Shown here in pieces: positions 44,901-47,900 of a DNA stretch of 64,000 nucleotides. The stretch is from Escherichia coli (GTDB lineage Bacteria; Pseudomonadota; Gammaproteobacteria; Enterobacterales; Enterobacteriaceae), in assembly GCF_003018255.1 (NCBI RefSeq), contig NZ_CP027440.1. One strand, 5' to 3'. Within the stretch, counting starts at the first letter, position 1, and every line of letters begins with the position of its first letter. Made by a program: the position numbers.

Positions 44901-47900
44901 CTTATTTGCCGAACCATATGCGTTTATGTCTAAATGACCACCGTTTTCCAGCAACACATTGTCTGCCACGTTATTGTGGATGGAGAATGCCCCTTCACTA
45001 TTCGTACCGCTCACCGTCAAATCGTAAGTCGTTACTTTCAAAGCGGCTCCATCGTGCTGAGTAACATTTGTTGCCATACCACCTCTAACATCAAGCACGC
45101 CACCGGAATAAATTTCAATAACATCCGAGGTGCTAGTGTAATCAACAATTTGCGTACCACCAGAATAGATCTGAGTATTTTTTGCCGTTGACTTACTATC
45201 CAGAGACTGAGTTCCACCTTCAATCGTCGTGTCCAGCGCACGGCTCTCATATACTCTTTGCTCACCGCCATTTTTAATGGTGGTTGTTTCTACTGTGCTC
45301 TGTTCAACATACTGTCGACCACCATTTATGGTTGTGTTCGTCGCCAGACTTCCTTGCGTGATGTCCTGATAACCGGACTTATTTATCGTTGTACCATCAA
45401 CATGCCCCTGAGTTGTTACTGTCTGCCCTCCACCATCAATGATGGTTCCATTCGCAGTCCCCCCACTTATGTGTGAATTACCACCCTTAATTGTCGTTCC
45501 ATTGCTGATACCACCTGTATAAACGTCCTGATTGCCACTCTCGATTATTGTACCTGTGGAAATACCCCCGTCATGAATTGACTGTCTGCCCCCGTTAATG
45601 GTTGTATTATTAGCCTGCCCCACAAAATTGTTATGACCTCCTACATCTTGATATCCACCCGATTCAATAAGACTTCCATTAGATATCCCGCCATAAACAT
45701 TCTGCTGGCCATGGTTGATAATATGAGTGTTATTTGTTGTACCTCGTTCATCTACTTTTTGGCTGCCATCTACAGTCTCATCGTTTACCACACCAATAAC
45801 ATCAGGAGTGAAGGCCGCCATCCCGGGCGGGGCATATATCAAGGCAGATATCAATAAGGAAAGTACTGAGCGACGACAATAATAGGGACTGGTCCTGTTC
45901 ATAAATTTCATCCTCTGAAAAGTGAATACTGAGTAGCGTTTAAGCGACCTTAGCTTTGCTGCAACATCAGCCCACAGGCACCAGACCAGGGGATTCATCC
46001 TGAAGAGACAGCGCAAGTGTATTGTGTTCACCGCTCATCAAAGACATCATGATGAAATGATGATATTCCGCATAAGAATGAGGCATTTTTTAAACGCAGT
46101 GCGCTGAAGTGTGGTTGGATAAAAAAGTCAATCTATTCAGGAAACACGGGCGTATTCTTTTCTTTCGACAATCAGGCAGTCGGAAAAATAAAATGATTTA
46201 CATAATCGTTTCTGATGAATATCTTCTGCTCACATAAAAATCACACAATAACTCTGAGATCGCAGATTGTTTTACTTTTACAGCTTCCGTCCCCCCATTG
46301 TTGGGCAAATATAGATTGGGCCAGAGCACGAAAGTTAATACCACGTTCGCACAGCTCCTCCAACAGCACGACAAGATGCCACATACTGCGCCCCAGTCGG
46401 TTCAGTTTACAGACTAGCAGTGCGTCCCCTACCGATAATGTCCTGAGCCGTTTGTTCTGTCCGGGCCTGCTGCCACGGTTATGCGCTGAAGTGGTAACTC
46501 TGAGCACGCAGTTCTTCAGTCAGGCGTGGTGCACCGTCACCCTATTATTGCTGGGTAAGATCAAAAAACTTTCAAGCAGCTAAGGAAAGTTGAACCAGAC
46601 ATTAGATGAAATATTTCAACCAATTACAGCACCAGTTCAGACACCGCCAACTCATCAAATAAATCAAGGGGTTACGTGAAAGCGTAGCCCCTTTTACTTT
46701 GGTAGTGACAGCAAAATGGATGCAGTGTGAAGAATAATCCCGTTTACTCAATCAATAATACATATTATTTCAATCTACGTTATTATTTCTTTGTAAAAAT
46801 CGCCATTTATTTATCATTGAAAACTGCTTTTAGAACTTTATACAAGGGGACTAGTCACAACAGGACTATTCTCAACGGGCTCATCCTCAGAGGAACTATC
46901 ATCAAAGTCATCATCCATAGATGAAATACCATCGAATGGTGCCACGCCCGTGATTAGTTTTATTTTATTATTACGATCAGTCAAGACTCCATTTAAACCA
47001 TTTTCGCTGACGGATTTTAATAATTTATCATAACTCTTATTGTCATCAGGCACATTAAAAATACACGGAGTATCAACATCAAACAATGACGTTCCCCAGT
47101 TCACATATTTAATATCATAGTTACTGAAGTTCTATCCAGAAAAGAAGCATCCCTTAAAATCCAATCCACCTAAATTATATAAACCACCCTCTTCTTTTTG
47201 GAGAGCAATGTTAATTTTGGCTATCTCCCGGACATCATCGCCATTTTTGTATTTGAATACCGTTTCAAGATGTTCTCCAGACAGCTTGACTTCTGGAAAT
47301 AATTTGAAATTAAACCCTACATTATTATGTGTCAACGTAGATGAACAAAAGATGGAAAAAGCTTGCAGTGCTGAATTATAGCTATCGATTTTATCTTGAG
47401 GCTGCGCTCTTGGTAAAAACTTATAGCAACACTCATAAAAATTAAGTAGAAACTCTGATGACCTTCCATTTTTATCAAATAATACCCGCTGAAAATGCTG
47501 CACAAACTTATTCGTTTTTTCTTGAATATCTACGGTGTGTTCCTTTGACTCTGACAAAGATGAAGCCTGTTGAAGTGCATTGCTCATCTGGTTAATGAAC
47601 ATGTGCATTTCTTTAAATTTATCTCCATAGTGACCTTTAACTTGCTGCGAGTTTTTAGCTACAGGTGAAATCTTATCTATTTGGTTGTCATATAAATTAT
47701 GTGATTCCATACAGTCATTTGGCGGCGTTTCTGAAATAACACTACGTGTTCTACCTGGCTGAAGTGAAGCAACATGAAAATCACTTTTTATTATATTATC
47801 GAAAAGGGCCTGTTCATTTCTTTTAGCGGATTGAACATACTGATCAATATTATTTTCTCTCGATAATTTGTTATTTTCAGAAAACACATTTTCTTTAATC

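What the first reader, a model, noticed from the sequence alone, without database searches (positions are those of the whole stretch)
46241..46507. Serine-recombinase (Pin/Hin-type invertase) fragment beside the autotransporter
Only the central catalytic-domain block (…LLVCKLNRLGRSMWHLVVLLEELCERGINFRAL…) is in frame; the N-terminal Ser-nucleophile region and the C-terminal HTH are missing or out of frame. Pin-family invertases normally flank invertible segments or mobile elements, so this relic marks an old mobile or invertible element in the ssrA-ileY accessory segment.
Basis: partly seen in the sequence, partly recalled or inferred. Interest (0 to 1): 0.3.

Follow-up and report, generated by a model that had tools for sequence, protein, structure and literature searches.

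The report
Dead invertase gene fragment (pinH)
This is the already catalogued E. coli pseudogene pinH: a short middle piece of a phage-type DNA-flipping enzyme gene, fused to a scrap of an IS3-type jumping gene. It cannot work any more, so it is an ordinary genomic fossil.

Summary
The 88-codon ORF at 46241-46507 (minus strand) carries real serine-recombinase homology: Pfam Resolvase E=2e-9 (profile positions 43-102 of 145), Gin E=7e-14, and 70% identity to e14 Pin residues 39-94. No other frame of 46030-46840 has recombinase or HTH signal.

It is the ortholog of the annotated K-12 pseudogene pinH (b2648). It lies in the same ypjA-pinH-ypjCB-ileY synteny and is colinear with K-12 at about 95% identity.

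New detail on how it was truncated:
- **5' side:** the pin piece (codon 42 onward) joins, through a 5-bp AGGCC microhomology, to an IS3-family relic. That relic is the exact 18-bp left terminal repeat plus nt ~531-626 of orfB.
- **3' side:** the pin piece ends at about 46287. From 46282 the sequence is a ymgJ-like/autotransporter-upstream module, paralogous to the ycgI-ymgJ locus.

The ORF is therefore a chimera: an out-of-frame IS3 head, about 48 in-frame Pin codons, and unrelated tail codons.

It lacks the Ser nucleophile, the E-helix and the HTH, and the window has no crossover sites or tail-fibre genes. Nine sampled alleles share the junctions, and the eight compared give pN/pS of about 1.5, with one stop codon and one frameshift elsewhere among them. 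It is a neutral relic of a Pin-like prophage invertase, already known and of low interest.

The parts
46287..46468 (-). Pin-type DNA invertase gene remnant (pinH core). It matches pinE nt 124-302, that is codons 42 to ~101. Codons 42 to ~89 are in frame. Codons ~91-101 lie behind a 4-bp deletion.
   Evidence: DNA alignment to pinE and to a P2-like prophage invertase; tblastn with PinE, E=7e-19; Pfam Resolvase positions 43-102/145; Gin E=6.7e-14.
46241..46507 (-). The 88-codon ORF as listed and as annotated 'recombinase family protein'. It is a chimera: codons 1 to ~13 are IS3 orfB DNA read out of frame, the middle is Pin, and the last ~14 codons come from the ymgJ-like paralogous region.
   Evidence: IS3 frame +1 reads '...VTVPHA*RMNCVLRVTPLT' and the window reads '...VTVHHA*LKNCVLRVTTSA'. 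The paralogous region starts at 46282.
46464..46558 (-). Internal fragment of an IS3-family transposase gene, matching nt ~531-626 of the 1258-bp IS3 (orfB residues ~60-85, GAPRLTEELRAQSYHFSA). It is interrupted by a stop/frameshift.
   Evidence: blastn 80.2% over 96 bp, E=4e-13 against E. coli genomes and 3.9e-18 locally; tblastn with IS3 OrfB 13/18 identical, E=0.002.
46546..46563 (-). IS3-family left terminal inverted repeat, TGATCTTACCCAGCAATA, identical to IS3 nt 1-18. It joins directly to the orfB fragment (internal deletion of about 510 bp at a TTACCC microhomology).
   Evidence: The only match in the window, with 0 mismatches; 0.03 expected by chance even when 3 mismatches are allowed. 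IS3 coordinates. No right-end repeat in the window.
46464..46468 (-). IS3/pin junction: the 5 bases AGGCC align to both parents (AAGCC at IS3 nt 622-626, AGGCC at pinE nt 124-128).
   Evidence: Overlapping ends of the two local alignments. The junction is identical in all 10 alleles compared.
45903..46282 (-). ypjA upstream region with a degenerate ymgJ-like remnant. It is part of a module (window 45702-46282) paralogous to the ycgI-ymgJ locus next to minCDE. Its outer edge at 46282 is the 3' limit of the pin relic.
   Evidence: 89.3% identity over 581 bp to L006 2501-3080, ending at 46282. The same end point appears in further copies.
41328..45902 (-). ypjA/EhaD adhesin-like autotransporter (context; the 'autotransporter' of the finding).
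   Evidence: ORF list; PGAP annotation of the 100%-identical record; K-12 synteny.

Best explanation
The feature is a non-functional gene fossil, the ortholog of E. coli K-12 pseudogene pinH. An ancestor of E. coli carried, downstream of ssrA, a mobile element (most likely a prophage) with a Pin-type tail-fibre DNA invertase gene. Judged from the Pin-like character states that survive among alleles, that gene was about 90% identical to e14 Pin in the surviving stretch (inference). An IS3-family element was present next to or in it. Illegitimate, microhomology-level deletions then did three things. They removed the interior of the IS, joining left-end nt 1-18 to nt ~531. They fused IS nt ~626 to pin codon 42 at AGGCC. 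They removed everything 3' of pin codon ~101, where the sequence now abuts the ypjA/ymgJ-like module. What remains encodes only beta-strands and helices of the middle of the catalytic domain. It lacks the Ser9/10 nucleophile, the E-helix that forms the dimer/tetramer interface, and the HTH DNA-binding domain, and there are no recombination sites for it to act on. It therefore does nothing enzymatic and drifts neutrally. Shown here: the homologies, junction coordinates, absence of the other parts, shared junctions across alleles, and relaxed selection. Inferred: the order of events and the prophage origin.
For: Identity with pinH: same synteny ypjA-pinH-ypjB/C-ileY and an indel-free alignment at about 95% identity to K-12. 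Recombinase homology is limited to Pfam Resolvase positions 42-102/145 in one frame. PinE residues 1-38 and 95-184 have no match. IS3 relic: exact 18-bp IRL and 96 bp of orfB at 80% identity in the same orientation. The 3' edge coincides with the end of the ymgJ/autotransporter paralogous module at 46282. Nearest intact relatives are phage tail-fibre invertases. No crossover site, no IS right end, no phage tail genes. Decay: conserved Din residues are replaced in the window allele (PGL->PGQ, W61->C, D64->N, R71->W, R81->C). Among 9 E. coli alleles all junctions are shared. In the 8 alleles compared codon by codon, the pin core has 26 nonsynonymous against 7 synonymous segregating changes, and pN/pS = 1.55. 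One of them carries an in-frame stop; a ninth allele has a 1-bp deletion; O157:H7 has deleted half of the relic. All 26 close database proteins are E. coli fragments of 48-133 aa with different starts and ends. PGAP marks it partial or pseudo in most genomes.
Against: In the window strain and a few others the 88-aa ORF is open and PGAP calls it a protein, so translation cannot be excluded from sequence alone. The population sample is small (9 alleles), and the locus is very diverse (4-11% pairwise), which makes pN/pS noisy. The prophage origin is inferred only from the family of the nearest relatives; no other phage gene survives nearby. Spread outside E. coli could not be measured: the junction-pattern scan of GTDB genomes returned only two E. 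coli contaminant contigs.
Confidence: 0.93

Rival explanations
1. The open 88-codon ORF encodes a functional small protein, for example a catalytic-domain fragment that binds and modulates intact prophage invertases (Pin, P2-type) in the same cell.
For: The ORF is uninterrupted in the window and in the 100%-identical genomes, and is annotated as a CDS. Two catalytic arginines of the KLxRLGRS motif are retained.
Against: The ORF's start and stop lie in unrelated DNA (IS3 out of frame; ymgJ-like region) and differ between strains, giving products of 48-133 aa. pN/pS is about 1.5; one sampled allele has an in-frame stop, another a frameshift, and O157 has a half-deletion. The E-helix, the main subunit interface of serine recombinases (established knowledge from gamma-delta resolvase and Gin structures), is absent. 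No promoter-like site on the minus strand upstream of it.
Confidence: 0.03
2. The fragment derives from a Tn3-family transposon or plasmid resolvase rather than from a phage-type DNA invertase.
For: Pfam cannot separate the two, since both are PF00239. An IS relic next to it shows that transposable elements were active here.
Against: Gin invertase scores E=6.7e-14 against 1e-3 to 1e-2 for gamma-delta/Tn3 resolvases. DNA identity is 79-83% to P2-like and e14 invertase genes sitting beside tail-fibre genes. Top phage protein hits are Fels-2/SEN8/Cin/Gin invertases. IS3-family elements do not carry resolvases (established knowledge).
Confidence: 0.02
3. The relic belongs to the ssrA-integrated island (CP4-57 or its equivalents) rather than to an older, separate element.
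For: It lies only about 5 kb from ssrA, a known integration hot spot. CP4-57 occupies that site in K-12.
Against: In the window the ssrA attachment site is empty: window 41153 onward equals the K-12 sequence starting at the attR-side ssrA duplicate psaA. Yet the relic is present. In K-12 the annotated CP4-57 boundary ends before ypjA. JNE23-011 has a different island at ssrA and flanks 99.94% identical to the window, including the relic.
Confidence: 0.02

Closest known systems
E. coli K-12 pseudogene pinH (b2648)
   Same: Same position between ypjA and ypjB/ypjC-ileY and same strand. The alignment is indel-free at about 95% identity across 45950-46900, and both junctions are the same.
   Different: Allelic differences only. 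The window allele has an open 88-codon frame with a GTG start, whereas K-12 is annotated over 240 bp. There are 16 substitutions inside the ORF, clustered in its 5' third.
Pin of cryptic prophage e14 (pinE, b1158) and P2-like prophage tail-fibre invertases (Din family: Hin/Gin/Cin/Pin)
   Same: 70% aa identity over Pin residues 39-94 and 79-83% nt identity. The KLxRLGRS...ERGINFR core of the catalytic domain is retained.
   Different: Only about one third of the gene survives. There is no Ser nucleophile, E-helix or HTH, no adjacent invertible tail-fibre segment and no 26-bp crossover sites. Several family-invariant residues are substituted.
IS3 (IS3 family, 1258 bp)
   Same: The first 18 bp of the left inverted repeat are identical. 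96 bp of orfB match at 80% identity in the same orientation.
   Different: Only about 115 bp of 1258 remain. There is an internal deletion, no orfA, no DDE domain and no right end. The 80% identity means a relative of IS3, not IS3 itself.

Membership tests
Serine recombinase, DNA invertase (Din: Hin/Gin/Cin/Pin) subfamily | Sequence homology to the serine-recombinase catalytic domain (PF00239) | tested here: met
   E=2.3e-9, 38 bits against a cut-off of 23.3, but only profile positions 43-102 of 145.
Serine recombinase, DNA invertase (Din: Hin/Gin/Cin/Pin) subfamily | Closer to invertases than to resolvases | tested here: met
   Gin E=6.7e-14 against gamma-delta/Tn3 resolvase 1e-3 to 1e-2; best phage hits are all tail-fibre invertases.
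Serine recombinase, DNA invertase (Din: Hin/Gin/Cin/Pin) subfamily | N-terminal catalytic serine (YxRVSTxxQ motif, Ser9/10) | tested here: not met
   No match to PinE residues 1-38 in any frame. The six-frame Pfam scan shows no profile positions 1-41. The DNA upstream of codon 42 is IS3-derived.
Serine recombinase, DNA invertase (Din: Hin/Gin/Cin/Pin) subfamily | Conserved Asp-Arg...Arg catalytic cluster (Pin D64, R65, R68) | tested here: not met
   Both arginines are present, but the aspartate is Asn (KLNRLGRS against KLDRLGRS) in the window and in all sampled alleles.
Serine recombinase, DNA invertase (Din: Hin/Gin/Cin/Pin) subfamily | E-helix and C-terminal helix-turn-helix DNA-binding domain | tested here: not met
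   PinE residues 102-184 have no match; no HTH_7 or other HTH hit in six frames.
Serine recombinase, DNA invertase (Din: Hin/Gin/Cin/Pin) subfamily | Pair of inverted 26-bp crossover sites flanking an invertible segment next to the gene | tested here: not met
   Sites were derived from e14 and from a P2-like prophage. The consensus has 0 matches in the window with 3 mismatches allowed. No tail-fibre homologs.
Serine recombinase, DNA invertase (Din: Hin/Gin/Cin/Pin) subfamily | Fis-dependent recombinational enhancer in the 5' coding region | not testable with these tools
   The 5' coding region that carries the enhancer in hin/gin/cin/pin (established knowledge) is deleted here, so it cannot be present in cis. 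Not assayed.
Ortholog of K-12 pseudogene pinH (b2648) | Same flanking genes and colinear DNA | tested here: met
   ypjA - pinH - ypjB/C - ileY in K-12; indel-free alignment at about 95% identity; shared junctions.
IS3 family insertion sequence (relic) | Terminal inverted repeat of the family | tested here: met
   18/18 identity with the IS3 left end; unique in the window; 0.03 expected by chance.
IS3 family insertion sequence (relic) | OrfA/OrfB transposase with DDE domain, second terminal repeat, target duplication | tested here: not met
   Only about 32 codons of orfB, interrupted. No right-end repeat. The target duplication cannot be assessed with one end.

The most novel reading that the evidence does not exclude
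The relic is not entirely inert. Because some alleles keep a 35-bp stretch identical to live prophage pin genes, pinH could act as a homologous-recombination or gene-conversion partner for prophage invertase genes. That would occasionally produce hybrid pin-pinH genes or chromosomal rearrangements. One hint is the 1050-bp metagenome scaffold that joins an intact pin N-terminus to a K-12-like pinH allele. Another is the unusually high diversity of the 5' half of the fragment.
Probability: 0.05. Interest if true: 0.3.

Novelty: already known. Interest (0 to 1): 0.07.

Why it matters
It matters little. The result confirms that the first-stage reader recognised a real, heavily truncated homology from raw sequence. 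It also tidies the annotation: the 'recombinase family protein' CDS that PGAP calls in this strain is a three-part chimera (IS3 out of frame, Pin core, ymgJ-like DNA) and should be marked pseudo.

The precise junctions add a small documented case of how prophage genes are whittled down by IS-associated and microhomology deletions. They also give a fixed landmark for the edge of the ypjA autotransporter module in the ssrA-ileY region.

Tried and rejected
**1. N-terminal remnant in another frame.** I first read the frame-2 peptide 'GDGAPRLTEELRAQSYHFSA' as a possible frameshifted recombinase N-terminus. That was rejected: it is IS3 OrfB (GAPRLTDELRAQGYPFNV) at both DNA and protein level, and Pfam sees no Resolvase signal there.

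**2. Crossover sites.** I looked for Din crossover sites using sites derived from e14 and a P2-like prophage. There were none. The inverted repeats found in 45900-47000 are weak (72-87%) and look like chance.

**3. Other phage remnants.** I searched for tail or tail-fibre proteins and found none in the window. The flank 46570-46840 has no phage or plasmid match.

**4. RNA families.** The Rfam scan of 45500-49300 found only the tRNA.

**5. Age of the relic.** A junction-specific DNA pattern scanned across GTDB species genomes hit only two contigs, both E. coli contamination in unrelated assemblies. The pattern was evidently too strict for the E. coli representative, so spread beyond E. coli remains unmeasured.

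**6. Database protein search.** It returned only 26 E. coli fragments and no intact ortholog. The one hit with a full N-terminus (P0008) sits on a 1-kb metagenome scaffold and is probably an assembly chimera.

**7. 'Plasmid' copies of the ymgJ module.** The one copy I opened (H98) is a chromosomal minCDE-ymgJ fragment filed as a plasmid, which gives no support for mobility of the module.

**8. Literature.** No open-access paper discusses pinH as a pseudogene.

Full report
**1. What is at the coordinates**

The minus strand of 46241-46507 holds an 88-codon ORF with a GTG start.

The homology is real:
- Pfam Resolvase (PF00239): E=2.3e-9, 38 bits against a curated cut-off of 23.3, but only profile positions 43-102 of 145.
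- Solved structures of the Mu Gin invertase: E=6.7e-14 over Gin residues 38-95. Gamma-delta and Tn3 resolvases reach only 1e-3 to 1e-2.
- tblastn with e14 PinE (sequence): 39/56 identities, E=7e-19, PinE residues 39-94 on window 46477-46310. Nothing matches residues 1-38 or 95-184 in any frame.
- A six-frame Pfam scan of 46030-46840, with stops masked, finds this single Resolvase stretch and no HTH.

**2. It is a known locus**

- The 1-kb region is present in most complete E. coli genomes. 3001 of 5426 cover at least 80% of it.
- In the 100%-identical record the order is ypjA (adhesin-like autotransporter YpjA/EhaD), a 39-aa hypothetical, 'recombinase family protein', ypjCB (pseudo), then tRNA-Ile.
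- In K-12 MG1655 the same position, between ypjA (b2647) and ypjB/ypjC-ileY, is annotated as pseudogene pinH, b2648.
- The window aligns to K-12 across 45950-46900 without a single indel, at about 95% identity.
- ARAGORN places ssrA at 40805-41167 and a CAU-anticodon tRNA at 49049-49124, which corresponds to ileY.
- In most genomes PGAP already flags the feature as 'incomplete; missing N-terminus and C-terminus'.

**3. Anatomy: how the gene was cut**

A sensitive DNA search with 46200-46560 gave three classes of hit outside the orthologous locus:
- prophage invertase genes on the central part;
- 'IS3-like element IS3 family transposase' on window 46464-46558 (80.2% over 96 bp, E=4e-13);
- the ymgJ region on window 46203-46282.

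Following these up and reading along the minus strand gives this structure.

(a) 46563 to 46546 is TGATCTTACCCAGCAATA, identical to the first 18 bp of the IS3 left terminal repeat. It is the only such site in the window, with 0.03 expected by chance even when 3 mismatches are allowed.

(b) This runs directly into a stretch matching IS3 nt ~531-626, inside orfB (window 46558 to 46464). It still translates in another frame as GAPRLTEELRAQSYHFSA, against IS3 GAPRLTDELRAQGYPFNV. The IS relic therefore has an internal deletion of about 510 bp, at a shared TTACCC motif. No right end is present.

(c) At AGGCC (46468-46464) the IS3 alignment ends and the pinE alignment begins, at pinE nt 124 = codon 42 (R-P-G). 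This is a 5-bp microhomology junction.

(d) Pin DNA homology continues to about 46287-46294 (pinE nt ~302, codon ~101). A 4-bp deletion near codon 90 means the last dozen codons are out of the Pin frame.

(e) From 46282 downward the sequence is 89% identical to the ycgI-ymgJ locus beside minCDE (window 45702-46282 = L006 2501-3080). That module comprises the 5' end of an autotransporter gene, a ymgJ gene (degenerate here) and 49 bp beyond it. Every copy ends at the same base.

The whole composite relic is 46283-46569, about 287 bp. The annotated 88-aa 'protein' is thus a chimera. Its first ~13 residues are IS3 orfB read out of frame: IS3 frame +1 reads 'RMNCVLRVTPLT' where the window reads 'LKNCVLRVTTSA'. 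Its last ~14 residues come from the ymgJ-like region.

**4. What it came from**

- The nearest intact relatives are tail-fibre DNA invertases of the Din family.
- At protein level these are Fels-2, SEN8, Chris1, Cin of P1/P7, Gin and Pin, at 66-70% identity.
- At DNA level they are P2-like prophage and e14-type invertase genes at 79-83% identity. Each sits next to inverted tail-fibre and tail-fibre-assembly genes.
- Several E. coli alleles keep Pin-like states that the window allele has lost, for example RPGLKKLLRTLSAG, W61, R71 and T90. By inference, the ancestral gene was about 90% identical to e14 Pin over the surviving stretch.
- Nothing else of that element remains:
  - The crossover-site consensus, derived here from the e14 and P2-like inverted repeats, has no match in the window.
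  - Tail, tail-fibre and mcrA proteins have no tblastn hit.
  - The DNA between the IS end and ypjCB (46570-46838) matches no phage or plasmid.
- The relic is not part of the ssrA island. The window has an empty ssrA site, since 41153 onward equals the K-12 sequence beginning at the attR-side duplicate psaA. The K-12 CP4-57 boundary also stops before ypjA.
- From about 46500 onward, through ypjCB and past the ileY-equivalent tRNA to the end of the profiled stretch (52000), the GC content is 31-41%. This is consistent with an accessory, horizontally acquired segment.

**5. Does it do anything?**

What is missing: the catalytic serine, the E-helix, the HTH domain and any substrate site are absent.

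What is degraded: within the retained core, the conserved Asp of KLDRLGRS is Asn. Other residues invariant in Pin, Gin and the P2-type enzyme are also replaced: L46Q, W61C, R71W, R81C.

Population evidence:
- I compared nine E. coli alleles sampled across the identity range, plus O157:H7. All share the same IS-end, IS/pin and pin/ymgJ-like junctions, so the truncations pre-date the diversification of the sampled E. coli.
- In the eight alleles compared codon by codon, 33 changes at 32 variable sites in the 168-bp core are 26 nonsynonymous and 7 synonymous, and pN/pS = 1.55.
- One of those alleles has TGC to TGA in frame. A ninth allele has a 1-bp deletion. O157:H7 has lost everything from about 46316 into ypjA.
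- The 26 close proteins in the 5.8-billion-sequence database are all E. coli fragments of 48-133 aa with different starts and stops.
- No promoter-like site lies upstream on the minus strand, and no Rfam family matches.

The best-supported reading, at about 0.93, is a neutrally decaying pseudogene.

**6. Rivals**

- A functional mini-protein that modulates live invertases is not excluded by sequence in strains with an open frame. It is contradicted by the unstable ORF boundaries, the lack of the subunit interface and the relaxed selection (about 0.03).
- A resolvase rather than invertase origin is contradicted by the ten-orders-of-magnitude preference for Gin and by the DNA-level matches to prophage invertases (about 0.02).
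- Membership of the ssrA island is contradicted by the empty att site (about 0.02).

**7. Comparison with the known, and novelty**

The fragment works like nothing; it is a relic. By descent it belongs to the Din invertase lineage. It fails every functional membership criterion except partial domain homology and subfamily affinity (see the membership table).

It is the already annotated pinH. The only additions here are the exact junctions, the recognition that an internally deleted IS3-family relic forms its 5' boundary, and the recognition that the ymgJ/autotransporter paralogous module forms its 3' boundary. The K-12 record shows no mobile-element feature at that spot. I could not check ISfinder or EcoCyc, so I do not claim the IS relic as new. 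Interest is low (0.07).

**8. Limits**

- The scan for the junction in other species failed to be informative.
- The allele sample is small.
- The order of the deletion events and the prophage identity of the parent element are inferences.

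Noticed in passing
L004 (ENA ERZ28622251 scaffold_25675, 1050 bp), gene 413-763: A metagenome scaffold encodes a 116-aa protein (P0008). It has an intact Pin N-terminus (MLIGYVRVSTNDQ..., upstream DNA 85% identical to e14 pinE) fused to a K-12-like pinH allele (99.4% identical) and its ypjA-side flank. The switch lies in a 35-bp stretch that is identical between prophage pin genes and some pinH alleles. It is probably an assembly chimera, but a real pin x pinH recombinant is not excluded.
   Followed up: partly
L016 (Terrisporobacter mayombei DSM 6539 NODE_86, 539 bp, cov 0.74) and L017 (Planococcaceae MAG UBA3370 contig_5935, 2799 bp): Both contigs are colinear with window 45953-46491 and 46185-49094 at 92-95% identity. 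They are E. coli sequence contaminating a Firmicutes isolate assembly and a MAG used as GTDB species representatives.
   Followed up: yes
L015 (E. coli O157:H7 Z1830) against window ~41900-46316: O157:H7 carries a deletion running from inside the pinH core (about window 46316) into ypjA. It leaves only the beta-barrel end of the autotransporter and about 52 codons of the invertase relic.
   Followed up: partly
window 46160-46690: Pairwise nucleotide diversity among nine E. coli alleles is 4-11%. It is highest, at 10.9%, in the 5' half of the pin fragment, with two clearly distinct haplotypes there (CTGAAAAAACTG against CAGAACAAACGG). This seems high to me for E. coli chromosomal DNA (my own expectation; no baseline was measured here). 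The cause is not determined; candidates are deep allelic lineages, recombination, or conversion from prophage pin genes.
   Followed up: partly
window 45702-46282: The 5' end of ypjA plus its upstream region, including a degenerate ymgJ-like ORF (…VSRRYSSETIM*), is 89% identical to the ycgI-ymgJ locus next to minCDE. The homology ends at exactly the same base in all copies seen. At least one 'plasmid' record carrying it (H98) is actually a chromosome fragment.
   Followed up: partly
window 46838-48292 (-): ypjCB (DUF5507 + DUF5508) is broken into three ORFs in this strain: 47936..48292, 47132..47887 and 46838..47104. K-12 has it split into ypjC and ypjB, and some strains have it intact. The region is very AT-rich (31-34% GC).
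   Followed up: partly
window 41145-41330: The ssrA 3' end runs straight into the ypjA flank, so there is no integrated island. Strain JNE23-011 is 99.94% identical from 41145 to 52900 but carries an island with a primase-helicase gene at ssrA, and K-12 carries CP4-57 there.
   Followed up: partly
window 46666-46693 (+): A strong stem-loop (12-bp stem, AAGGGGTTACG…CGTAGCCCCTT) is followed by a T-rich run, between the IS3 relic and the ypjCB stop. It may be a bidirectional terminator for ypjCB. It is conserved with a few substitutions among the alleles.
   Followed up: no
L019 (Escherichia phage vB_EcoM-606R2) 2950-3264: The 'DNA invertase' of this deposited phage genome is itself only 105 aa. 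It diverges from pinE after codon ~88, so it is another truncated invertase gene, at nearly the same position as the pinH frame break.
   Followed up: no
window 45967-46086 (-): A 39-aa 'hypothetical protein' (WP_001120794.1), labelled 'ATPase' pseudogene in other strains, is annotated just upstream of the annotated ypjA start (45902), inside the ymgJ-like paralogous region. It is probably an annotation artefact.
   Followed up: no
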